This document shows positions 27,073 through 37,505 of a stretch of DNA of 37,505 bases, one piece after another (the stretch's first letter is position 1; each line of letters begins with the position of its first letter). This DNA comes from a virus (Duplodnaviria > Heunggongvirae > Uroviricota > Caudoviricetes). Position numbers and translations under genes: made by a program. The DNA is taken from the IMG/VR virus record IMGVR_UViG_2721755658_000003; one strand, given 5' to 3'. The notes beneath the pieces are model-generated. The model had not been told where the DNA came from, ran no database searches, and saw nothing but the letters and a program-made list of their open reading frames with translations.

Positions 27073-28512
27073 TCATTTTATAGAATCAAGGTTATCGGCG
27101 TTCATCATACTTTCAAAACCAGTTCCCATACGTCCATATCTAACCCCTGAATTATGCATACTCTGAGCGCCGGCCTTAACCTTCAATTTGATCTCTTGCG
27201 CTGACGCTATCCCAGCAATCATTGCTAAATATTCAAAATACTTATGCTGTGTCGCTCTTAAAAATAGTTCAGGTCTATAATTATAACTCGCATAATAAAT
27301 AGTGCATGGATACCAATAGACACCATCATTACAAAATGAATAAAAAAGAACTAGCACATCAGCCTGCATAAGATCAGAAAAGGTAATATCTTCCCTATCT
27401 GCATTTCTTTTAATTAGCTCTGCAACTGGAGAGTAATACCTTATATCTTCTTCAAAACCTGCCTGTAGCGTTTCAGAATCAGCTAAGAAAGCGCTAATTG
27501 ACACGAGTCTATGTTCCGGTGGTAACTGCCTATCACCAGAAAGGAATCTGGCAGATAAAATCGCACGTACTAATTGAAACTTCTCTAATCTAATCAATAT
27601 AGCAACTGAATATAAGAAAATTTCGTATGCAAATACCTTTTGTGCATCATACCAGTTTAATTGCCATGAACTGACATCGCTAGGAGCTTCGGTTAGTAAC
27701 AGAACTTTTTCAAAGAACTTTACTAGTTCTGTTGAAAATTCATCCTGCATCGTAAACTCTGCCTCAAGAGTTATCCATTCACACACATAATCCCTGATAG
27801 GCTTCATGGCAGCAACGTCGCTAATTATTTTCCTACCCATGCTTTGCAAATCATTTTGCTCTGGGCGAGCTCGGATTCTCATCCCGTCAAGGTACTTGAC
27901 TACTGAATCAACGAAATCACGCCGATAATAACTAACACCTGCCCTATTTTGCAAAACAGCTTGTTTCAAGCTATTAAATTTTGCGTGTGGTTCACTCACC
28001 GGATCATATTGCCCACTATCTAAATAACTGGGTCTTTTTCCAAGCTTAGGTTTTATATCTGCTGGTTTTCCATTAAGCAGCCTTACTAACCGTTCCCAAT
28101 TTTGATTTTCTTTTTCTGGTGTTGAAAGGTCAATCCATATTAACGAACTCATAAAAACAGGAAGACAAGGTTCTGAATTCTCATCAAATTCACAAACAAT
28201 AGGTATAAATTTTGATTGTTCGACTTTTGTGTAGACTTGTTGAGAGATGATCTGGGATTCTGTGCCAACCCCACTTTGTTTGTTATCAGCTTTTTTTGCG
28301 TAAACTGAATCACACATCACAAGCACATTGGTGATACTTTTATCAACAATCATTTTTTCCATGAATGCGTTTTTATCATTGCCCTCCTTCAAATCATATA
28401 TGTCAATGACAACATCCACTCCATCACTCAAAAGTCTATCAGCTATTGCTTTAACTCTTTCCTTATGAGCTGGGCTACTCCAACTATATGATATAAAAAC
28501 TTTTGGCGTCAT
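27073..28512 (-). CDS. accessory protein with N-terminal SEFIR/TIR-like domain and uncharacterised C-terminal region; candidate defence protein
   Basis: N-terminus MTPKVFISYSWSSPAHKERVKAIADRLLSDGVDVVIDIYDL matches the SEFIR/TIR_2 signature; AT-rich; lies between cos and the portal gene. Confidence 0.65.
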   Translation of the reverse strand: MTPKVFISYSWSSPAHKERVKAIADRLLSDGVDVVIDIYDLKEGNDKNAFMEKMIVDKSITNVLVMCDSVYAKKADNKQSGVGTESQIISQQVYTKVEQSKFIPIVCEFDENSEPCLPVFMSSLIWIDLSTPEKENQNWERLVRLLNGKPADIKPKLGKRPSYLDSGQYDPVSEPHAKFNSLKQAVLQNRAGVSYYRRDFVDSVVKYLDGMRIRARPEQNDLQSMGRKIISDVAAMKPIRDYVCEWITLEAEFTMQDEFSTELVKFFEKVLLLTEAPSDVSSWQLNWYDAQKVFAYEIFLYSVAILIRLEKFQLVRAILSARFLSGDRQLPPEHRLVSISAFLADSETLQAGFEEDIRYYSPVAELIKRNADREDITFSDLMQADVLVLFYSFCNDGVYWYPCTIYYASYNYRPELFLRATQHKYFEYLAMIAGIASAQEIKLKVKAGAQSMHNSGVRYGRMGTGFESMMNADNLDSIK

Positions 28513-28723
28513 ACTCAGTCCTTATCGAATTTATTAGGTACTTGAGCACAAGTTACTGCTCACAGAGTTTTTCAGCAAGTTCTGTTCGCATCGGCAACAC
28601 CTGCGCTATTAGCTGCTCAGCAGCATTCTGCAGAGTGCTCTCCTTTTACCTGCAATTTAGACAGAAGTTGTCAACGTACCGGAGATTGCGCCGGATTTTC
28701 GCCATTTAACCCCGTTGCGCGCG

Positions 28724-28742
28724 CTCGTATCCCCGCCACGCC
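28724..28742 (-). other. cos-like cohesive-end site
   Basis: Minus-strand GGCGTGGCGGGGATACGAG followed by CGCGCGC resembles the P2 cohesive end GGCGAGGCGGGGAAAGCAC...GCGCGC as recalled from memory. Confidence 0.5.
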
Positions 28743-28782
28743 TGCCCGCTTTATGTAGTGGTTTTCATGCACCTGCATGATC

Positions 28783-28811
28783 TACGCAAAAGCCCGCCAG
28801 AACTGGCGGGC
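28783..28811 (-). terminator. terminator-like hairpin downstream of the lipoprotein gene
   Basis: Stem GCCCGCCAG / CTGGCGGGC followed on the minus strand by TTTTG. Confidence 0.35.
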
Positions 28812-28915
28812 CTTAACACAAAAGATCCTCAAACGATCATGCGATCTCATGCAGCATAGACATGCGCGTTTATGCAGAATGTGCAAAATCGTAACATACT
28901 CAGCAAGCGTGAAAC

Positions 28916-29593
28916 CTAGAACGTGACAGCCTTGTCAAAGCCAGAAATAATTGTATAAGAAATAGACGAGTTATCAGCCTTGTTCACTTTGAACTTGGCA
29001 CCTTTGTAAGCGATAACGTCACTTCCCTTAGAATCTACAGAAAAATCTGTTGTAAATGCTGCACGAGCCATATCGTTTGCAAATTCACGATAGGTGAACT
29101 TCATTACACCGCCTGCATTTCCATTGTATTCGATAGTCTTAACCAATGAGTTACTAACTCGACACAGCCCATCAGGAACACGTTTGATAGAAATTTCTGA
29201 TGCAGTATAAGAAGTACCATTTGGCGGTGATATCTCATTTTTTGCAGCATCGTAACTAACATAATCAACATAGTTACCGATTTGCCCATAGAGATTTTTT
29301 AACGCAACAGCTTGAGGGTTATGATAATTGCGGTAAATTCCATTCCCCTCACTGCAATATGTACCAGCAGCGATAGAAGACAATGCACCATTAGCCGCAC
29401 CAAGTTCTAGTACGTCCGTTTTAAATCCAGTAGCAGATGTGATAATGGGATCGCCCATGTAGGCGGTAGCACTTTGCCCAATAGCAGGCTTCACCACTTC
29501 AATAGCAGTGATATTTCGGTTAGAAGCATGTGGCACGCAACCAGTTAGGATTACAGCAAGAGATATTGGTAACGCTACATTATTAATTTTCAT
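28916..29593 (-). CDS. accessory lipoprotein of unknown function
   Basis: Start at MKINNVALPISLAVILTGC (ATG 29593) giving signal peptide plus lipobox LTGC; C-terminal aromatic residue; AT-rich. Confidence 0.6.
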   Translation of the reverse strand: MKINNVALPISLAVILTGCVPHASNRNITAIEVVKPAIGQSATAYMGDPIITSATGFKTDVLELGAANGALSSIAAGTYCSEGNGIYRNYHNPQAVALKNLYGQIGNYVDYVSYDAAKNEISPPNGTSYTASEISIKRVPDGLCRVSNSLVKTIEYNGNAGGVMKFTYREFANDMARAAFTTDFSVDSKGSDVIAYKGAKFKVNKADNSSISYTIISGFDKAVTF

Positions 29594-29616
29594 TTTTAGC
29601 CTATTATTCTTTTCTT

Positions 29617-29651
29617 GACAAAAAACAAGGCGATATCTGATTGACATCGCC
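29617..29651 (-). terminator. rho-independent terminator after the DinI-like gene
   Basis: Minus-strand hairpin GGCGATGTC...GATATCGCC followed by TTGTTTTTTG. Confidence 0.45.
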
Positions 29652-29706
29652 TCTCACTCATATGTAACCCTTTTTGATTAGTAAAAACAAGCGTCTATTG
29701 ACAAAA

Positions 29707-29940
29707 TCAATGCAGCCAGCTGTCGTCTTCCCACACCTTCTGCATAATTTTCATCACTTGTTTTCTTTCTTCGTCCAGTTGCAGTCCGGTCAGTTCCACA
29801 CCGTTAGAGCTACCTTTACGGATACGGATTACCGTTTTGGGATACAGGGGGCGCAGATTGCGGTAAAGCTCGGATTCAAGGGCGTCCAGGGTAGACTGGC
29901 TAATCTTCTGCTCTTTATCGATCATTATTTCAATGCGCAT
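29707..29940 (-). CDS. DinI-like protein
   Basis: Start at MRIEIMIDKEQ with SD GAGGTGA 5 nt upstream; resembles E. coli DinI (MRIEVTIAK...QETWE) in length and pattern. Confidence 0.65.
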   Translation of the reverse strand: MRIEIMIDKEQKISQSTLDALESELYRNLRPLYPKTVIRIRKGSSNGVELTGLQLDEERKQVMKIMQKVWEDDSWLH

Positions 29941-29950
29941 AAAAGTCACC

Positions 29951-30139
29951 TCAGTTGATGACATCCATTGAGCGGTTGTATTCGTGGCTTCTGATTTTTG
30001 CCATGAGTTCATCAGTCAATTCAGAAACCCACTGCAGAGCCAGCCCCTTCTCTTCATCACTACACTCACTAGCCGCTACAAGCTTAAGAAAAAAATCAAT
30101 GCGCTGGAGCTTCAAAGACTCCAAAAAATAGTCCTGCAT
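29951..30139 (-). CDS. small SOS-controlled hypothetical protein, first gene of the LexA-box operon
   Basis: 62-aa ORF with strong SD (AGGAGGAAAG) and a LexA box 43 bp upstream. Confidence 0.5.
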   Translation of the reverse strand: MQDYFLESLKLQRIDFFLKLVAASECSDEEKGLALQWVSELTDELMAKIRSHEYNRSMDVIN

Positions 30140-30181
30140 CTTTCCTCCTATGACACCACACGCAATACTGTATGTATAACC

Positions 30182-30199
30182 ACTGTTTATATTTACAGT
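30182..30199 (-). promoter_or_regulatory. LexA (SOS) box overlapping the promoter of the small-ORF/DinI-like operon
   Basis: ACTGTTTATATTTACAGT has a perfect CTGT-N8-ACAG core; overlaps a -10-like TATACT and a TTTACA -35 on the minus strand; a second degenerate box overlaps at 30166-30185. Confidence 0.7.
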
Positions 30200-30292
30200 A
30201 TATAATAATCTTACTGATGTAAAACGTTTTTTTACGCTTATCAGCCTGATATGCCTGGTATTATTAAGAGCACGAATTGTTAACCAGCGTAA

Positions 30293-32707
30293 TTAATACA
30301 GGTTCCGCCACTTATCATCTTCCTGCAAACGCTGGTTCCGATAGAAGATACGCAGGCCTGCTCCTGACGGAATACTGCCGCCGCGAAGGAGTAAATCGAC
30401 CTCTTTCTCGCTGCCATCAAATCCTCTGGATTTCAGTTCATAGACGAGCTGCTGTCGTTGATGGTCTGTAATTCGCTGTTTGTAGTCTCTACGCCGTTTC
30501 GGTTTCACCAGACGTAACCTTGCAGCCAGTTCCCGGCGCTCCTTTTTGTTCATACTGTGCAGGTAATCGTGCAACACCTTGTCATCCATGCGGGTAATGT
30601 CCGTTCTGGGGTCCCCATCAGCTGATTTATCTTTCTCCTGTTGGTTCAAATTTTCAGCAAGGGGACAGTTATTGCCACGAGTCCAAGGGGCGCAAGCGCC
30701 CTGGTCGGCTGCCGCCTCCTGAACGTCAACGGCTTTACGAACCATTTTCCACTTCACTGCATGAGTGCAGATCTTGCCCTCTGCAATGGGTGACCAGATG
30801 CCATAAATACGAATGCCGTGATCGCCATAGGCGGTCGGCTCTTCGTTGATTTCATAAGCGGTTCTGATGAGGTGATATTTACGGGGAACCAGTACGCCGC
30901 CCTGCTTCATGATGTAGGTGGCAAAACAACCAGCATCAGCAGCAGCCAGGATGGCATCAAGGCGCGGGTTATCCAGTACCGGCGCACCTGCTTTTTTGTC
31001 CCCCTTTTGCCTTGCCGCCTGACCAGCCAGCAATCGCAGTTCACGGTAAGCCTGACGCCCCGGAATGCCAAAGAAGCGGAATTGCTGAACACGATGCAGA
31101 GACGCCCAGGCATTCACGTATTCAGCGTTATCACGCAGAGATTTACCCGTTTCCTTGCTGATCTCGCCAGCCAGACCACGCCCGTCAATGTTCTTACTGA
31201 TGTATTTCGCTATGTAGCTTGTCGGCGTTCCTTTGCGCGGGTTAATCAGCTCAGACTTAAAGCGCGGCCCCGTGTTATTGCCCAGCTCCTCGCGGTCTTC
31301 ACGGATAGCAAACTTACGCAACAATGCTGTAATGGCGCGGCGGTCTTTTTTGCGCATGAAACACAACAGGTGCCAGTGAACGGTGCCGTCGTGATGCGGC
31401 TCAGCCACCCGCACGCCATACCAGCGCAACCCGGCTTTGTGCATCGCCTTACGAAATGCAGCAAACATACCGACCAGATAATCGCTGCTTTGTCTTACCG
31501 TCGCATTTGTCCAGATCGGGTTGGGCCTGCCGTTATTTAGCGTGGAATGGAAACGTGACGGACAGGTGATGGTGTAGAAAACGGCGCAGTCACCGCGCAT
31601 TTCCGCGATAAGCTCCAGACCTTTAACACAGGCCATCATCTCATTGCGGCGATGCGCAGGGTTGCTGCTGCTGGCGTTTACCACATCCTCCATGTCTAGC
31701 GTGTCGCCGTCTTCGTTCACCAGTTCATGAGAACGGAAAAACTCCAGCGACTTACGGCGCTGCTCACGTTTATGCAACACGGCTTCATAGCTGACATAGG
31801 GAGATGCTTTTTTGCTGACAAGGCAGACAGCACGCAACTGCTCTTCCCGCCATTCGCAACGCATCTTCCATAATTTCCGATACCACCAGTCGGCGCACAA
31901 CATACGCGCCAGCGAACCCGGAATGAGTTCATAGGGCACGGGTTTACGGCGGTTTCTTTTCCGACGGAGTTGCTCAAACGCAGGCGGGATGACATCCAGA
32001 CGCAGGGTTTCCGCTGCCACCCTTTCCCATGTATTGCGGATTTCTTCTGGCTTAACGTCATCGGTGGCATACAAATCGCCACAAGCGGCATCAAGGCACA
32101 TACTCATATGCGCAGCTACCAGGGTGGACAGGCGTTTCACCTGATCCTGACTCATTTCAGGCAGGATCAGCAGGCCGTCCAGCCCTTCATGGCTTGCCAT
32201 AAAGCGAAAAGATGCAGATAGCTGACTGTCGCGTACATGCTCCAGTCGTTCCAGACATGGCTTAATCGTCTCACGTAAATAGCGGGAATAAGCCTTTGGC
32301 CTGCCCAGGCTGCTGAAGTATTCAATACGTTGCATCAGCGGCTTGCTGATATGGGAAGGCTGGGCGTTGACGTCCGCCAGAATGACCATATCCGGATTAA
32401 AACGCTGCTGCTCATGCGCCAGCTTTGCCCGACTAATGAGCTTATCCTGTTCCATTTCGCGCTGGACAGGATCACGGGATTCATTAAAGAAATAACGCTC
32501 CCAGACCTGATCACTCAGCGCCTCACGGCGCAGCTGTTCCTGCTCGTTATCGGCAGCGTACAGAGTGATCAGGTTTGAAAGCGTAGAAACCGGCGCAACT
32601 TCCGCCGGGTCCAGATAAGGGTTAATGGCCTTTTTCGAGCTGTTCCATGAGAACGATGCGGCAGCTTCGTTAAAGCCGCAGCAGTTGTTCATATCGGCAT
32701 GACTCAT
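30293..32707 (-). CDS. replication initiation endonuclease (gpA-like, rolling-circle initiator)
   Basis: 804-aa ORF with [15 protein letters not shown] motif typical of P2 A-family initiators. Confidence 0.85.
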
Positions 32708-33561
32708 GCACGTACTCCGTACACGGCAGAACTATCCACGCCACGCGAATAATCAAATCCCACCCAGCAGCGCGGCCCGGAAACAGCAATGATTTCTGTT
32801 GCTGATTTACCCTCGCCAGCTGCCACACCGATGCTGCGTTTTGCCTTGATGTAGTGGTGAGTAAAATTGCGATACAGCGAACGGATCAGGGATGTGTCAC
32901 TGTTAGAAACAATGACCGGATGTCCTTCTGATGACCGATGTTCAAGAACAGATGCCAGGTGATACTGGTCATCTTCAGTGAAGCCGTCAGTGTGATAGCC
33001 GAAAAACGTACCGTCATACGGCGGATCGCAATACACCACATCCCCCGCCTTCAACATCGCCAGCGTTTCATCAAAGCTGGCGCAGATAAACGTTGCTCGC
33101 TGGGCCTTTTCTGCAAATGCGCGAATTTCTTTTTCAGGGAAATACGGATTTTTATAATTACCGTAGGGAATGTTGAAATGCCCGCTCTTGTTATAGCGAC
33201 ATAAACCACGGTAACCGTGACGATTGAGATACAGGAAATATACCGCTTTCATGAAATCAGTAATTTCAGTTGAGTAATTAAACTCCTGCCTTATGTTGTA
33301 ATAAGCCACCTCCCTGTTTGCGTTCTCAAATAAAACTCTGGCGCGAGATATAAACGATTCACAATCAGCGGCAACCTTTTTATAGAGGTTGATTAAATCA
33401 GGATTAATATCCGCAACCAGATAGCTGGGATAATCCGTCTCCATCATCACAGCACAGGAACCCGCGAAAGGTTCAACCAGTCGCGGGCCAGCAGGAAGAT
33501 GTTTTTTCAGTTCGGACATTATGGCAGTTTTATTTCCCGCCCATTTCAGGATGGTGCTCAT
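32704..33561 (-). CDS. dam: DNA adenine methyltransferase (Dam family)
   Basis: Start at [11 protein letters not shown]; DPPY catalytic motif and SAM-binding FAGS motif present. Confidence 0.8.
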
Positions 33562-33785
33562 ACAGCACCTCCGTTGTAATGTTTGCCTTTCAGCTCTGCG
33601 ATTTCCTGACAGGTAATGCAAAGCTGCACACCCGGAATGGCACGGCGGCGTGCTGGCGGAATTGGCGCTTCACACTCAATGCAAAGCACGCGGGACACGC
33701 CCGGCGTTTTGGCACGGGCAGCACGGATATGGCGTTGGCGTTCTTCTTCAACGCGCTGCTGTACGAGATCCATTGCATCAGCCAT
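33558..33785 (-). CDS. TraR/DksA-family C4 zinc-finger protein
   Basis: 75-aa ORF with CIECEAPIPPARRRAIPGVQLCITCQ four-cysteine motif. Confidence 0.7.
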   Translation of the reverse strand: MADAMDLVQQRVEEERQRHIRAARAKTPGVSRVLCIECEAPIPPARRRAIPGVQLCITCQEIAELKGKHYNGGAV

Positions 33786-34024
33786 TAGTGGATCTCCTGC
33801 GCTTCGTTCTGGATTGCTTCAGCAGTCACACGAAGCAGTTCTGCCGCTTCGACGTGGGTTAGCTGGCGGGATGTGATATGACACGCCAGGCTATCAAGGC
33901 GAGCTGCCATTGCTTCAGCCCTTGCCCGGCGTTCTTCCAGACGAGCCTCTGTCAGTAAAATATTAAGCCCTGCGTCATCCGGTCCGGTTTTGGTCGAGAG
34001 GGTTTCAATATTACGCATAATCAA
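33785..34024 (-). CDS. hypothetical early-region protein
   Basis: 79-aa ORF tightly packed in the early operon; no family recognised. Confidence 0.45.
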   Translation of the reverse strand: MIMRNIETLSTKTGPDDAGLNILLTEARLEERRARAEAMAARLDSLACHITSRQLTHVEAAELLRVTAEAIQNEAQEIH

Positions 34025-34085
34025 TTCTCCTGAATTTAGATAAAGGGATGCCCGGCGGGTTTACGCCATTAATTTCATTAGTTGG

Positions 34086-34427
34086 TTAATTCGGCATGGT
34101 TAGCCGTCTGGGAAATAAGCTCACCACTGCACGAAAATGATTCATTGCTTTAATCAACTCCCGCTTTTCGTCAGTGGTCAGCTCATTAATGCTGATGCTA
34201 TGACGTTCAGCTGGAATTTTTGCCATAAAGAATATGGCAGCCAGTGCCCGTTTATTTTGTTCGCTATTAATATCCCGTGAATCACGCATATCTTTAATAA
34301 ACCGCTCAAGCTCTGACTCAATATTCAGGCCAAAAACTTTCGCCCTTAACTCCGCAATGTGATTAAGTCCATTCAGGCGTTCACCGGGGCTTAATGGAAC
34401 AGTCGCCGCAGTGCCTTCAATAGCCAT
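34086..34427 (-). CDS. hypothetical early-region protein
   Basis: 113-aa ORF in the early operon; no family recognised. Confidence 0.45.
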   Translation of the reverse strand: MAIEGTAATVPLSPGERLNGLNHIAELRAKVFGLNIESELERFIKDMRDSRDINSEQNKRALAAIFFMAKIPAERHSISINELTTDEKRELIKAMNHFRAVVSLFPRRLTMPN

Positions 34428-34591
34428 TTGTTCCCCCGTTTTTTCGTAGATAGTTCTGCCAGCAATTCATCTTGTGAACGGCACGGATGCCAGCGTTTAC
34501 CATCCTCCCCCATGATCCAGCCGTGACCGTAATGCATTGCCGGGCTTTGTTTAACCAGCAGCGATGCAAATGATGGTTCTTTCGTCAGCAT
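34391..34591 (-). CDS. hypothetical small early protein (gene call uncertain)
   Basis: ORF directly after cII with start at MLTKEPS; overlaps the next ORF by 37 nt in another frame. Confidence 0.3.
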   Translation of the reverse strand: MLTKEPSFASLLVKQSPAMHYGHGWIMGEDGKRWHPCRSQDELLAELSTKKRGNKWLLKALRRLFH

Positions 34592-34598
34592 AAGCACC

Positions 34599-35108
34599 TC
34601 ACAGCAAACCAAATGAAGCACCGAGGCCAGTCACGGTATCAACTGCACTCGCCATCGCAGGATTAGCCTGTAAACGGGCCTGCAATGAAACAGCCGCCAG
34701 CGCCATCAGTCGTGTTACAGAGTTAATGCTGCTGATAGCATCACGACGACCGGCACAGGTTTTTACATCGCCAGACACCGCACCTGCAGCAACACGCCCG
34801 ATCTCTGCGGTTGCACTCATGACGTAATGTGGCAGTTTCTCTTTTGCCACCTCATTAATCGGTACACATGGCAGACAATGAATCTGTGCCAGAAAACCAT
34901 CTACCAGCGTTGAATCTTCAGTCAGATCGGTAAGCAGCCAGATTTCTGGTGCGGTTAATAAATGAGGCTGAGCTGGGTTCAGCTTGTTCCGCAGAATCTG
35001 CACATTCATGCCTGCACGTTCTGCCAGTTGCACCAGATTGTGGCGCAGTGCAAATGCACGACAGGCTTCATCAAAATGTGGATGTTTGGAAACTTGGTAA
35101 TCAAACAT
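34599..35108 (-). CDS. cII: CII-like transcriptional activator (phage 186 CII type)
   Basis: Near-identical to 186 CII as recalled ([11 protein letters not shown]...AGMNVQ.LRNKLNP...[25 protein letters not shown]...GASFGL). Confidence 0.85.
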
Positions 35109-35140
35109 GGTCAATGCCTCTGATGTATTTCAGAATCGAA

Positions 35141-35362
35141 CTAATTAAGGTTTAGATTGCATTCTGAAAGCGCATCAACGGTCATTGCTGCTATGTTGAT
35201 CATCACTTTTTCGCGTTTTTTATCTTTGCGCAGACGGTGACGGATAAGGCGTCCATCAGCCAACATGTCATTGATGGTATCGATGGATAGCCCTGTCAGC
35301 TCGCTATAGCGTTCAATAGTCACATGAGGCGTGGTAAGAGTGATTGAAATGTTAGGTCTCAT
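35141..35362 (-). CDS. apl: Apl/Cox-like excisionase and transcriptional regulator
   Basis: 73-aa ORF, first gene of the early operon divergent from cI; HTH-like [18 protein letters not shown]. Confidence 0.65.
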
Positions 35363-35434
35363 GATGCAACATTCCTCGTTTAATGATGATTAATCAGGAC
35401 GAATACGGATCGTTTGTATTTTGTGAACACCATA

Positions 35435-35463
35435 AACATACGATCGCACGGTGAAATCGTCAA
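35435..35463 (-). promoter_or_regulatory. candidate early lytic promoter (pR-like) in the immunity switch region
   Basis: Minus-strand -35 TTGACG, 17-bp spacer, -10 TATGTT, about 65 bp upstream of the apl start. Confidence 0.4.
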
Positions 35464-35487
35464 GATAAAAGTTCACTTGGAGTGACC

Positions 35488-36057
35488 ATGAATTTGGAGA
35501 AAGGCGGACGAGGCGCCATAGAGCGCATGGTAGAAGCTTATGGATTCAAGACTCGACAGGCGTTGTGCGATCATTTAGGAATCTCTAAAAGTACACTCGC
35601 CACACGCTACATGCGTGACTCATTCCCAGCAGAATGGGTAATCCAGTGCGCCCTTGAAACAGGCACCTCGCTTAATTGGCTCACAACCGGGCATGGTTCA
35701 AAGCAAACTTCAGGTAATACAAATACTATGGAAGTTGCTAAATATGTATTATCTGATGGGGCCTTGTGTGAAGACGGTTTTTATATTTTCGATAGAGAAT
35801 TTCTACCGTCGGCATTCAAGAATCTTTTTGTAATCACAGATAATAATTCTGAATTTATTTGTGATAAGGAATTTGATGATATACGTGATGGTAAATGGGT
35901 AATAAGTATTGATGGCGAAATAACGATCCGTGACATTACTCGTTTACCCGGTGGAAGAATCTTCGTCGAGGGTGGAAACAGAGCCTTTGAATGTAAGATA
36001 GAAGACATTGAAATAATTGGTAAAATTATAAGTTTAACAGTCAAGTATGTTAAATAG
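35488..36057 (+). CDS. cI: CI immunity repressor (phage 186 CI type)
   Basis: ATG at 35488 with SD GGAG 5 nt upstream (ORF track uses GTG at 35482); resembles 186 CI (EAYGF, CALETG..L.WL.TG, C-terminal RLPGG..FVEGG). Confidence 0.8.
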   Translation: MNLEKGGRGAIERMVEAYGFKTRQALCDHLGISKSTLATRYMRDSFPAEWVIQCALETGTSLNWLTTGHGSKQTSGNTNTMEVAKYVLSDGALCEDGFYIFDREFLPSAFKNLFVITDNNSEFICDKEFDDIRDGKWVISIDGEITIRDITRLPGGRIFVEGGNRAFECKIEDIEIIGKIISLTVKYVK

Positions 36058-36072
36058 TACCGGGAGGAAATT

Positions 36073-36264
36073 ATGCTTGGTAAGGTATTTTTTGTGGTTT
36101 TGTCATGTTCTTTGTTATTAAACCCACTAGCTACCTATGCTAGAAATTATCCCTGCTCAGGGAAAAAGGGAGGTGTTTCTCACTGTACCTCTGATGGCAA
36201 ATTCGTTTGCAATGATGGAACTATTAGTAAATCCAAAAAAATCTGTACTAAAAACTCACGATAA
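36073..36264 (+). CDS. small secreted cysteine-rich protein, unknown function
   Basis: 63-aa ORF with SD GGGAGG, signal-peptide-like N-terminus and four Cys in the mature part; between cI and int. Confidence 0.5.
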
Positions 36265-36403
36265 CTTTTGCTTTTATATCTGCACCTAAAATAAAAATGA
36301 GCCACAGGTTAACCGCAAAAGTTACATGATCACATAGCAAAAAGAATAGCCTACTTCATTATGGCTTCAGTGAGATGTATGGTCGCAGGATTTCATACAT
36401 TGA

Positions 36404-36423
36404 CACTGGTTATACATACAGTA
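36404..36423. promoter_or_regulatory. LexA-box-like motif upstream of int
   Basis: CACTGGTTATACATACAGTA, a CTGG-N8-ACAG with one core mismatch; 18 of 20 positions identical to the reverse complement of 30166-30185. Confidence 0.3.
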
Positions 36424-36452
36424 AAAATGCTCTCTATTGGAGGGCATTTTTT

Positions 36453-37505
36453 ATGGCTGTACGAAAACTCACCACAGGAAAATGGCTTTGCGAATGTTAC
36501 CCCGCCGGACGTAGTGGGCGTCGTGTGCGTAAACAATTCGCCACCAAAGGCGAAGCACTGGCTTTTGAGCGTCACACGATGGAAGAAACCGAAGCAAAGC
36601 CCTGGCTAGGTGAATCAGTGGATCGTCGAACACTGAAAGACGTGGTTGAGCTATGGTTCAAACTACATGGTAAATCACTGACTGCTGGGCAGCATGTCTA
36701 TGACAAATTGCTGCTGATGGTTGACGCTCTGGGCAATCCCCTTGCAACTGATCTAACCTCTAAAATGTTTGCCCACTATCGAGATAAACGCCTGACAGGT
36801 GAGATCTACTTCAGCGAGAAATGGAAGAAAGGAGCAAGCCCGGTCACCATTAACCTGGAGCAAAGCTATCTAAGTAGTGTTTTTAGCGAACTATCCCGCC
36901 TGGGCGAATGGTCGTATCCGAACCCACTGGAGAACATGCGAAAATTCACCATCGCAGAAAAAGAGATGGCATGGCTTACCCATGAGCAGATTGTTGAATT
37001 ACTGGCTGATTGCAAACGTCAGGACCCAATTCTGGCACTGGTAGTTAAGATATGCTTAAGCACAGGCGCACGCTGGCGAGAAGCCGTAAATCTTACTCGT
37101 TCACAGGTGACCAAATACCGAATTACCTTTGTAAGAACGAAGGGGAAGAAAAACAGAAGCATCCCTATCAGTAAAGAGCTTTACGAAGAGATCATGGCGC
37201 TTGATGGGTTCAATTTCTTCACAGACTGCTATTTTCAATTTTTATCCGTGATGGAAAAAACGTCTATCGTGCTCCCTCGCGGTCAACTCACACACGTTCT
37301 GCGCCATACGTTTGCGGCGCACTTCATGATGTCGGGTGGAAACATTCTGGCCTTACAAAAAATTCTCGGACACCACGATATAAAAATGACTATGCGTTAC
37401 GCACATCTGGCACCGGATCATCTGGAAACGGCGCTCCGTTTCAATCCTCTGGCAACGCTGCCAAGTGGCGACAAAGTGGCGGCAGCGGTTGGCATTACCC
37501 CGTAA
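36453..37505 (+). CDS. int: tyrosine integrase (P2 Int family)
   Basis: Start at MAVRKLTTGKW; conserved CLSTGARWREA and HVLRHTFAAHFMMSGG...Y motifs as in P2 Int; stop codon is the last three bases of the window. Confidence 0.85.
   Translation: MAVRKLTTGKWLCECYPAGRSGRRVRKQFATKGEALAFERHTMEETEAKPWLGESVDRRTLKDVVELWFKLHGKSLTAGQHVYDKLLLMVDALGNPLATDLTSKMFAHYRDKRLTGEIYFSEKWKKGASPVTINLEQSYLSSVFSELSRLGEWSYPNPLENMRKFTIAEKEMAWLTHEQIVELLADCKRQDPILALVVKICLSTGARWREAVNLTRSQVTKYRITFVRTKGKKNRSIPISKELYEEIMALDGFNFFTDCYFQFLSVMEKTSIVLPRGQLTHVLRHTFAAHFMMSGGNILALQKILGHHDIKMTMRYAHLAPDHLETALRFNPLATLPSGDKVAAAVGITP

What the first reader, a model, noticed from the sequence alone, without database searches (positions are those of the whole stretch)
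29707..30200. LexA-box-controlled operon encoding a small protein plus a DinI-like protein (possible 186 Tum-type SOS antirepressor module, perhaps split)
A perfect-core LexA box (CTGT-N8-ACAG) at 30182-30199 overlaps a minus-strand promoter 43 bp upstream of a 62-aa ORF with a strong RBS, followed 8 nt later by a DinI-like ORF and a terminator; a second degenerate box overlaps at 30166-30185. In phage 186 the SOS-inducible tum operon lies at the equivalent position between A and cos, and Tum is an antirepressor whose C-terminal part resembles DinI as far as I recall. The two ORFs overlap in different frames over 29951-30012 and together are about the length of Tum, so this may be a frameshifted or naturally two-part tum analogue coupling prophage induction to the SOS response.
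Basis: partly seen in the sequence, partly recalled or inferred. Interest (0 to 1): 0.5.

Follow-up and report, generated by a model that had tools for sequence, protein, structure and literature searches.

The report
Split Tum SOS antirepressor operon (tumA-tumB)
This is the already described two-gene (tumA/tumB) version of the phage 186 Tum module, carried by a Fels-2-like P2-family prophage: when DNA damage removes the host repressor LexA, a small antirepressor and a DinI-like protein are made and the prophage wakes up.

Summary
A strong LexA box (30181-30200) and an overlapping weaker one (30166-30185) sit on a minus-strand promoter upstream of a 62-aa gene (30139..29951). A 77-aa DinI-family gene (29940..29707) and an intrinsic terminator (29653..29627) follow.

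The region is 97.4% identical to Salmonella phage Fels-2 and occurs in about 21% of complete E. coli genomes.

The 62-aa protein is a remote homologue of the N-terminal antirepressor part of 186 Tum (hhalign 96.8%, E 2.3e-10). The 77-aa protein matches Tum's DinI-like C-terminal part at 41% identity. PSP3 annotates the same pair as tumA/tumB, and Lemire et al. 2011 (citing Bunny et al. 2002) state that Fels-2 and PSP3 have tum split by a stop codon.

So the split-Tum reading is right and already known. The frame overlap and frameshift idea is an artefact of taking the longest ORF. The real arrangement is stop, 10 nt, ATG, and it recurs across genera.

Details that may be new:
- The operator is a colicin-type double overlapping SOS box, conserved in the Fels-2 subgroup and single in 186 and PSP3.
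- TumA never occurs fused, and 28 of 50 loci lack DinI.
- TumA does not co-vary with its CI partner.
- A third LexA box lies inside the int promoter.

The parts
30218..30223 (-). Putative -35 hexamer TTTACA of the tumAB promoter
   Evidence: Read from the sequence. It lies 17 nt upstream of TACTGT, the same layout as the annotated 186 p95 (TTCACA-18-TACTGT). Inferred: the consensus scan did not call it.
30181..30200 (-). LexA box 1, TACTGTAAATATAAACAGTG. Its first six bases double as the putative -10 hexamer.
   Evidence: 23.0 bits. Conserved in 46 of 50 related loci.
30166..30185 (-). LexA box 2, CAGTGGTTATACATACAGTA. It is offset 15 nt from box 1 and shares CAGTG with it (colicin-type double SOS box).
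   Evidence: 16.6 bits, third best in the window. Aligns without gaps to the double-box region upstream of colicin and cloacin-type bacteriocin genes on small plasmids. Conserved in 22 of the 50 TumA loci, all in the Fels-2-type group.
30144..30149 (-). Shine-Dalgarno AGGAGG of tumA
   Evidence: Sequence
29951..30139 (-). tumA: 62-aa helical-hairpin protein, homologue of the N-terminal antirepressor part of 186 Tum
   Evidence: ORF. phrog_698, E 9.7e-38. Identical in length to Fels-2 STM2728 and differing by one residue in the alignment. hhalign against the Tum N-terminal family: 96.8%, E 2.3e-10. AF2 model: helices 2-23 and 28-61, pLDDT 88.
29707..29940 (-). tumB: 77-aa DinI-family protein
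   Evidence: Pfam DinI E 6.6e-23. phrog_189, positions 71-148 of 151. 100% identical to the Fels-2 DinI-family protein, 78% to PSP3 TumB, 41% to the 186 Tum C-terminal part. E. coli DinI structure 1ghh, E 2.7e-6.
29617..29653 (-). Intrinsic terminator after tumB (position analogue of 186 t95a)
   Evidence: 11 pairs, 5 GC, followed by GTTTTTTGT. (fold z = -3.15).
28916..29593 (-). Lipoprotein gene (signal peptide MKINNVALPISLAVILTGC) occupying the slot of 186 orf97. Possibly reached by read-through.
   Evidence: phrog_1353, E 4e-105, with the match starting at residue 19 of the longest ORF. Present in Fels-2 as STM2726. Not similar to 186 Orf97.
28791..28812 (-). Putative second terminator: GGCCCGCC-AGTTCT-GGCGGGCT followed by TTTG (position analogue of 186 t95b)
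   Evidence: Read from the sequence. The scan did not call it because the T run is short.
28724..28742 (-). cos-like site GGCGTGGCGGGGATACGAG, which bounds the operon
   Evidence: the first 13 nt are identical to the annotated 186 cos.
35482..36057 (+). cI: 186-type immunity repressor, the inferred target of TumA
   Evidence: BLASTP against 186 CI: 33% identity, E 8e-38. Pfam Phage_CI_repr plus Phage_CI_C.
36400..36428 (+). Second LexA-controlled promoter in the same prophage: TTGACA-17-AAAAAT with LexA box CACTGGTTATACATACAGTA (36404-36423) filling the spacer, about 25 nt upstream of the int start (ATG 36453)
   Evidence: 23.5 bits, best in the window. (promoter matches 10 of 12); a box at -49..-52 in all 14 loci with this int type, the window included.

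Best explanation
The region is the SOS operon of a Fels-2-like (186-type, P2-family) prophage, in its two-gene tumA-tumB form.

In the lysogen, LexA dimers occupy two overlapping boxes that cover the -10 region and the start of the tumAB promoter, which keeps it tightly shut. DNA damage activates RecA and LexA cleaves itself. The promoter then fires and two small proteins are made from closely spaced genes.

TumA (62 aa, a helical hairpin) is the antirepressor. It binds the prophage's 186-type CI repressor and stops it binding its operators. The early lytic promoter then opens (Apl, CII, replication) and the prophage is induced. CI is sequestered, not cleaved.

TumB is a DinI paralogue that most likely acts on RecA filaments to modulate the SOS signal. 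It is accessory, not required.

Transcription mostly ends at the hairpin at 29653..29627. Read-through would reach a lipoprotein gene before a second terminator and cos.

Shown here: the sequence anatomy, the homologies, the conservation and the genomic context. Taken from the literature: LexA control and CI sequestration by 186 Tum; the split in Fels-2 and PSP3; antirepressor activity of the upstream PSP3 gene. Inferred: that this copy works the same way, and that the double box makes induction tighter and later.
For: Identity of the locus:
- 97.4% identical to Fels-2 across 700 bp and 98% to many Klebsiella P2-like phages.
- Present in 1124 of 5426 complete E. coli genomes.
- The Fels-2 and PSP3 annotations show the same gene pair, named tumA/tumB in PSP3.

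TumB:
- Pfam DinI E 6.6e-23.
- 41% identical to the 186 Tum C-terminal part. It starts exactly where the internally initiated 186 product Tum95.5 starts.

TumA:
- The family profile matches Tum residues 4-44 in register (hhalign 96.8%, E 2.3e-10; HMM 35.3 bits).
- The same core is seen more weakly in PSP3 TumA (E 0.002).

Operator:
- for the window; 46 of 50 homologous loci keep a LexA box.
- Same -10/LexA overlap as the annotated 186 p95.

Context:
- 186-type CI (33% identity; Pfam Phage_CI_repr + Phage_CI_C), CII (69% identity) and an Apl-like gene.
- Gene order A - tumAB - terminator - gene - terminator - cos, as in 186.

Literature:
- PMC3121763 reports that Tum binds CI, that tum is split by a stop codon in Fels-2 and PSP3, and that the upstream PSP3 gene carries the antirepressor activity.

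TumA stands alone as the core:
- 28 of 50 loci have tumA with a LexA box but no DinI gene.
Against: - No experiment on this copy. The promoter is inferred and was not called by the consensus scan.
- Pairwise BLASTP of TumA against Tum finds nothing. Homology rests on profiles.
- TumA does not co-vary with CI: Mantel r is 0.20 against the CI N-terminal DNA-binding domain and 0.15 against the C-terminal domain. TumA at about 89% identity pairs with CIs at a median of 40%. That is unexpected for a specific protein-protein pair and needs the extra assumption that TumA contacts a conserved CI surface.
- The primary paper on Fels-2 (Bunny et al. 2002) could not be read. Its content is known only through Lemire et al.
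Confidence: 0.85

Rival explanations
1. A frameshifted or otherwise broken tum gene: a pseudogene or sequencing error that once encoded a single Tum-like polypeptide.
For: The two products add up to 139 aa against 146 aa for Tum. The longest downstream ORF overlaps the upstream one in another frame.
Against: - The junction is a clean stop, a Shine-Dalgarno and an ATG 10 nt later. The same layout (8-15 nt) is found in 22 loci from Escherichia, Salmonella, Citrobacter, Kluyvera, Pantoea, Mixta and others.
- No fused TumA-DinI protein appears among 50 loci or among 67 family representatives drawn from 1.8 billion proteins.
- More than 1000 E. coli genomes carry the same arrangement.
- 186 itself makes the DinI-like part separately from an internal GTG.
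Confidence: 0.02
2. ORF62 is an SOS-induced small protein with some other role (for example a toxin, a division inhibitor or a RecA/LexA modulator). On this view induction of the prophage uses another route, or the DinI-like protein is the real antirepressor.
For: - TumA shows almost no co-variation with CI.
- It has no Pfam or NCBIfam family and is called 'hypothetical protein' in RefSeq.
- The similarity to Tum is remote.
Against: - The profile match falls precisely on the Tum N-terminal part, in register.
- CI has the 186-type C-terminal domain (Phage_CI_C) and no Pfam peptidase or self-cleavage domain was hit, so an antirepressor route is the likelier one.
- The upstream PSP3 gene carries the antirepressor activity, and dinI deletions in Gifsy prophages do not affect induction (PMC3121763).
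- 28 of 50 tumA loci lack any DinI gene.
Confidence: 0.1
3. The LexA boxes are chance AT-rich palindromes, and the operon is constitutive or controlled by CI.
For: The bare CTGT-N8-ACAG core is expected 0.5 times per window by chance.
Against: - The 20-mer match is expected 0.00 times.
- The PWM score lies about 5 sd above the window mean and inside the range of genuine sites.
- A box is kept at a fixed distance in 46 of 50 loci while spacer bases vary.
- The arrangement is identical to the double-box region upstream of colicin genes (double LexA binding there per PMC2994835) and to the annotated LexA site of 186 p95.
Confidence: 0.03

Closest known systems
Fels-2 (Salmonella LT2) STM2728 / STM2726.1 locus and PSP3 tumA/tumB
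   Same: - Same two genes, order, lengths (62 + 77 aa in Fels-2) and 10-nt junction.
- Same position downstream of gene A.
- 97.4% DNA identity to Fels-2. TumB is 100% identical to the Fels-2 protein and 78% to PSP3 TumB.
- Same double LexA box as Fels-2.
   Different: - PSP3 TumA is a divergent member (E 0.002 to the family HMM).
- PSP3 has a single LexA box.
- The window's CI is only 41% identical to Fels-2 CI: roughly two-thirds identical in the N-terminal DNA-binding domain (63% over the columns scored) and 27% in the C-terminal domain.
- Its int is of a different type with its own LexA box.
- The cargo beyond cos differs: bSEFIR here, another gene in Fels-2.
Coliphage 186 Tum and the p95 SOS operon
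   Same: - LexA box overlapping the -10 hexamer TACTGT.
- Antirepressor domain plus DinI-like domain.
- A partial terminator, then one more gene, then a terminator and cos.
- 186-type CI/Apl/CII switch.
   Different: - 186 encodes one 146-aa polypeptide (plus internal starts), while here there are two genes.
- 186 has a single LexA box, and here there are two.
- Only about 20% identity in the antirepressor part.
- The downstream gene is unrelated to orf97.
Colicin and cloacin promoters with two overlapping SOS boxes
   Same: Two 20-mer LexA boxes offset by 15 nt and sharing CAGTG, with the second box reading CAGTGG...ACAGTA. They align without gaps to the region upstream of colicin-type genes on small plasmids. 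In colicin operons such double boxes bind two LexA dimers and give very tight repression (PMC2994835).
   Different: Here the boxes overlap the putative -10 hexamer. As I read the aligned colicin sequences, the boxes there lie just downstream of the -10. The regulated genes are unrelated. LexA binding here is untested.
Gifsy-1/2/3 LexA-controlled dinI-antirepressor operons (GfoA, GftA, GfhA)
   Same: A LexA-repressed operon that pairs a small antirepressor with a DinI homologue. The repressor is inactivated by binding, not by cleavage (PMC3121763).
   Different: Gene order is reversed (dinI first). The phages are lambdoid, the repressor family is different, and no sequence similarity to TumA was detected here.
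E. coli DinI (PDB 1ghh)
   Same: TumB has the DinI fold family signature over its full length and the acidic C-terminal WEDD-type motif.
   Different: It is a paralogue, not the host orthologue: NCBIfam equivalog score 42.7 against a cut-off of 111, and 31% identity.

Membership tests
186 Tum-type SOS antirepressor module | Promoter repressed by LexA (a LexA site overlapping the promoter) | tested here: met
   Met at sequence level only. Box 1 scores 23.0 bits and overlaps the putative -10, as in the annotated 186 p95. Conserved in 46 of 50 loci. LexA binding and SOS inducibility cannot be tested with these tools.
186 Tum-type SOS antirepressor module | Protein part homologous to the N-terminal (antirepressor) half of Tum | tested here: met
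   hhalign 96.8%, E 2.3e-10, residues 4-44 against 4-44. The family HMM hits Tum 5-48 at 35.3 bits. Pairwise BLASTP is negative.
186 Tum-type SOS antirepressor module | DinI-like C-terminal part | tested here: met
   Pfam DinI E 6.6e-23. 41% identical to Tum residues 71-146. Encoded as a separate gene.
186 Tum-type SOS antirepressor module | Single polypeptide of about 146 aa | tested here: not met
   Two genes separated by a stop and 10 nt. It therefore belongs to the split tumA/tumB variant (PSP3, Fels-2), not to the fused 186 form.
186 Tum-type SOS antirepressor module | A cognate 186-type CI repressor in the same phage, and a location between gene A and cos | tested here: met
   CI is 33% identical to 186 CI and has Phage_CI_repr + Phage_CI_C. 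Gene A lies at 30293-32707 and cos at 28742-28724.
186 Tum-type SOS antirepressor module | Binds CI and prevents operator binding; needed for SOS induction | not testable with these tools
   Known for 186 Tum, and for the PSP3 upstream gene through a personal communication cited in PMC3121763. Not tested for this copy. The lack of TumA-CI co-variation is neutral to mildly unfavourable.
DinI family (Pfam PF06183) | Full-length match above the Pfam gathering score | tested here: met
   81.3 bits against a cut-off of 24.2, profile positions 1-63 of 63.
DinI family (Pfam PF06183) | Orthologue of chromosomal DinI (NCBIfam equivalog NF007893) | tested here: not met
   42.7 bits against a cut-off of 111. 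It is a phage paralogue.
Colicin-type double overlapping SOS box | Two LexA 20-mers offset by 15 nt (the 16-mer cores overlap by one base) | tested here: met
   Boxes at 30181-30200 and 30166-30185. Gapless alignment with the regions upstream of three colicin or cloacin-type bacteriocin genes on small plasmids. Found in 22 of the 50 TumA loci.
Colicin-type double overlapping SOS box | Simultaneous binding of two LexA dimers | not testable with these tools
   Needs a footprint or gel shift.

The most novel reading that the evidence does not exclude
TumA may be a broad-spectrum antirepressor, not an immunity-specific one. It would dock on the conserved scaffold of the 186-type CI N-terminal domain (GG..I.R..AY.F..R..L..HL..S.ST.A.R..R..FP..W...C...TG.SL.WL..G.G). 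One SOS-induced TumA could then wake heteroimmune P2-family prophages in the same cell.

In this prophage lineage the SOS input would also be wired twice: a colicin-style double LexA operator on tumAB, giving a tight, late, threshold-like response, and a separate LexA-repressed int promoter that supplies integrase for excision.
Probability: 0.3. Interest if true: 0.5.

Novelty: already known. Interest (0 to 1): 0.22.

Why it matters
The module decides when a very common prophage family, present in about one in five complete E. coli genomes, leaves the chromosome after DNA damage, including damage from antibiotics.

Its existence and logic are established, so the finding adds little as stated. 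Four points are still useful:
- RefSeq still labels the antirepressor gene 'hypothetical protein'. A profile-level link to Tum would let thousands of copies be named.
- The colicin-type double LexA operator predicts tighter and later induction than in 186.
- The absence of TumA-CI co-variation makes cross-induction between heteroimmune P2-like prophages a testable question.
- The LexA-controlled int promoter is a second, apparently undescribed SOS input in these prophages.

Tried and rejected
- BLASTP of ORF62 against 186 Tum found no alignment. hhalign with shallow alignments (members at least 81% identical) gave only 16% probability. Homology became clear only with the diverse 50%-clustered representatives.
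- The 243-aa downstream ORF has the same length as 186 Orf97 but is unrelated. The length match is a coincidence of the longest-ORF call. The real start is probably M19, which gives a lipoprotein signal peptide.
- The terminator-like hairpin at the tumA/tumB junction (29962..29945) is not conserved outside the closest relatives. I rejected it as a regulatory element.
- The promoter-like site at 29621..29592 overlaps the lipoprotein start codon, so it cannot serve that gene.
- I tested whether TumA type tracks CI type, as a signature of specificity. It does not.
- No Rfam family was found in 28000-37505.
- TumA has no PDB sequence relative. I ran no fold search, because a two-helix hairpin gives uninformative matches.
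- The locus search with the full 27-sequence alignment failed for lack of a conserved stretch. A 10-sequence alignment worked.
- Bunny et al. 2002 could not be read.
- Literature searches for a LexA-controlled int in P2-like phages found nothing relevant.

Full report
**What is there**

On the minus strand the region reads as follows:
- TTTACA (30223-30218), 17 nt, then TACTGT (30200-30195).
- The 20-mer TACTGTAAATATAAACAGTG (30200-30181).
- An overlapping 20-mer CAGTGGTTATACATACAGTA (30185-30166).
- AGGAGG (30149-30144).
- ATG at 30139, opening a 62-codon gene that ends with TGA at 29953-29951.
- Ten nucleotides containing GAGG.
- ATG at 29940, opening a 77-codon gene that ends at 29707.
- An 11-bp GC-rich hairpin with a U run at 29653-29627.

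The first 20-mer is the only match in 37.5 kb to the LexA consensus with 3 or fewer mismatches, against 0.00 expected. The bare CTGT-N8-ACAG core would occur 0.5 times by chance. I built a PWM from E. coli LexA sites recalled from memory. With it, the three best 20-mers in the window are 36404-36423 (23.5 bits), box 1 (23.0) and box 2 (16.6). The next best scores 8.4.

The box core is at 30183-30198, one base off. The gap between the genes is 10 nt, not 8.

The overlap in different frames over 29951-30012 exists only if the downstream ORF is extended to its farthest ATG. The true start gives MRIEI..., the DinI family N-terminus. It is the start annotated in Fels-2 and PSP3.

**Identity**

The 700 bp are 97.4% identical to Salmonella phage Fels-2 and about 98% identical to many Klebsiella P2-like phages. 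The module is present in 1124 of 5426 complete E. coli genomes. Fels-2 annotates the two genes as a hypothetical protein (STM2728, 62 aa) and a DinI family protein. PSP3 names the homologous pair tumA ('similar to 5' end 186 tum; UV induction of prophage') and tumB.

The rest of the window is a 186-type prophage:
- Gene A lies at 30293-32707.
- CI lies at 35482-36057. It is 33% identical to 186 CI (E 8e-38) and has Pfam Phage_CI_repr and Phage_CI_C.
- CII is 69% identical to 186 CII, and there is an Apl-like gene.
- A cos-like site lies at 28742-28724. Its first 13 nt equal the annotated 186 cos.

The order is therefore A - promoter - tumA - tumB - terminator - one gene - putative terminator (28812-28791) - cos. 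This mirrors 186 p95 - tum - t95a - orf97 - t95b - cos. The intervening gene here is a lipoprotein (phrog_1353) unrelated to orf97.

**Homology to Tum**

TumB matches Pfam DinI (E 6.6e-23). It aligns with Tum residues 71-146 at 41% identity. It begins exactly where the internally initiated 186 product Tum95.5 begins.

ORF62 gives no BLASTP alignment with Tum. It belongs to phrog_698 and has no Pfam or NCBIfam family. An exhaustive HMMER search of 1.8 billion cluster representatives gave 67 relatives, nearly all stand-alone proteins of 55-75 aa.

A profile of 31 diverse members aligns in register with a profile of the Tum N-terminal part: residues 4-44 against 4-44, hhalign probability 96.8%, E 2.3e-10. 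The family HMM hits Tum 5-48 at 35.3 bits. Nearly invariant positions across the ORF62 family include E7, R13, I14, C26, W37, E40, L41 and L45. AlphaFold2 predicts a helical hairpin (helices 2-23 and 28-61) at pLDDT 88. No solved structure is related by sequence.

**What the literature already says**

Lemire et al. 2011 (PMC3121763) make four relevant statements:
- Tum binds its repressor.
- Its second half is DinI-like.
[quoted passage not shown] 2002).
[quoted passage not shown] E. Christie, personal communication).

Murchland et al. 2020 (PMC7708051) summarise the 186 pathway. SOS de-represses the LexA-regulated p95, and Tum then sequesters CI. The finding is therefore a near-identical copy of a described system. 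I could not read Bunny et al. 2002.

**Natural split, not a frameshift**

I examined 50 loci carrying TumA homologues: the window, Fels-2 and loci from a range of Enterobacterales genera.
- 22 have a DinI gene starting 8-15 nt after the tumA stop.
- None is fused.
- 28 have no DinI gene at all.

The 186-type antirepressor domain also occurs widely as stand-alone proteins of 63-72 aa, some named 'Tum protein'. TumA is thus the autonomous core and DinI an optional passenger. This agrees with the report that dinI deletions do not affect Gifsy induction.

**Operator**

A LexA box at a fixed distance upstream of tumA is kept in 46 of 50 loci, while spacer bases vary. In 22 of the 50 loci, all in the Fels-2-type group, there are two boxes offset by 15 nt that share CAGTG. 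186, PSP3 and the other subgroups have a single box.

A blastn search of the operator against plasmids hit about 800 records, most of them mobilizable. The three small plasmids I inspected carry the match directly upstream of a colicin or cloacin-type bacteriocin gene. The window aligns without gaps to their double-box region:
- Window: TATACTGTAAATATAAACAGTGGTTATACATACAGTATT
- Plasmid (cloacin-like): TATACTGTATATAAAACCAGTGGTTATATGTACAGTATT

In colicin operons such boxes bind two LexA dimers and give very tight repression, with expression in only a small fraction of cells (PMC2994835). I infer the same consequence here, namely lower basal expression and later induction than in 186. This is untested.

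**Partner specificity**

I paired TumA and CI from 41 genomes: the window, Fels-2, 38 of the loci and phage 186. They show almost no co-variation. Mantel r is 0.20 for the CI N-terminal domain and 0.15 for the C-terminal domain.

Within the Fels-2-type group, TumA has a median identity of 89% while the linked CIs have a median of 40% (minimum 28%). CIs up to 95% identical occur next to TumA types that are only about 48% identical. For example, the window and Fels-2 share their TumA (identical over the 50-residue core scored), yet their CIs are 41% identical.

Either TumA contacts the conserved scaffold of the CI N-terminal domain, in which case cross-induction of heteroimmune prophages is expected. 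Or specificity lies in a few residues that my measure cannot see. This is the main open point, and the only evidence that pulls mildly against the simple antirepressor picture.

**A second SOS input**

The best LexA-like site in the window (36404-36423) fills the spacer of a good plus-strand promoter, TTGACA-17-AAAAAT (10 of 12 matches). It lies about 25 nt upstream of a GGAGGG and the ATG at 36453, which starts int with MAVRKLTTGKW.

All 14 loci with this integrase type (phmmer score above 600), the window included, carry a LexA box at -49 to -52 with varying spacer sequence. One further locus, whose best int match scores as the Fels-2/186 type (L045, 394), also has such a box. Otherwise the Fels-2/186-type int, which abuts cI, has none. 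Homology with the Klebsiella phages starts just upstream of this promoter, so the box travels with int. Two literature searches found no description of this.

**Verdict**

The frameshift alternative is refuted. Residual interest lies in the double operator, the promiscuous pairing of TumA with CI, and the LexA-controlled int.

Noticed in passing
window 36400-36455 (+): The strongest LexA-like box in the window, CACTGGTTATACATACAGTA (36404-36423, 23.5 bits), sits in the spacer of a TTGACA-17-AAAAAT promoter just upstream of the real int start (ATG 36453). It is 19/20 identical to box 2 of the tum operator. All 14 loci with this int type (the window included) have a LexA box at -49..-52, as does one further locus (L045). 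Otherwise Fels-2/186-type int genes that abut cI have none. This suggests an SOS-induced integrase. I found no description of it in the literature searched.
   Followed up: partly
window 27073-28512 (-): A 479-aa TIR/SEFIR protein matching the PADLOC bSEFIR defence model (E 1.9e-104). It lies between the portal gene and cos, in a variable cargo slot where Fels-2 carries a different gene.
   Followed up: partly
window 28916-29647 (-): The gene after the tumAB terminator is a lipoprotein (MKINNVALPISLAVILTGC..., phrog_1353, no Pfam family). Its longest ORF (243 aa) starts inside the terminator hairpin and happens to have the same length as the unrelated 186 Orf97. The likely true start is ATG 29593. 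It sits in the slot of a gene that in 186 blocks superinfection. Among the 50 TumA loci scanned, only the window and Fels-2 have it downstream of tumA.
   Followed up: partly
window 36073-36264 (+): A small 63-aa gene with a secretion-signal-like start (NCBIfam PRK10040 family, 'hypothetical protein') is inserted between cI and int. It separates int from the cI transcript, which may be why int has its own promoter.
   Followed up: no
proteins P0267, P0273, P0276, P0289, P0293, P0298, P0301: Many divergent TumA-family members end in a glycine-rich tail finishing in LQ or FQ (for example ...KNPQNGGESGRGALQ). The window's TumA lacks this tail. Its meaning is unknown.
   Followed up: no
(186 Tum N-terminal search): The 186-type antirepressor domain also occurs widely as stand-alone 63-72 aa proteins (some named 'Tum protein' in Salmonella, Klebsiella, Kluyvera, Enterobacter). 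Fusion and split states therefore both exist within the 186-type lineage as well. Some short forms may be assembly frameshifts.
   Followed up: partly
window 32704-33564 (-) and 33558-33785 (-): A Dam-type N6-adenine methyltransferase (Pfam MethyltransfD12, E 1e-77) and a DksA/TraR zinc-finger protein lie just upstream of gene A, as in Fels-2.
   Followed up: no
RefSeq E. coli genomes: In RefSeq, tumA is annotated only as 'hypothetical protein' and tumB as 'DinI-like family protein' in over 1000 complete genomes. No Pfam, NCBIfam or PADLOC model covers TumA.
   Followed up: yes
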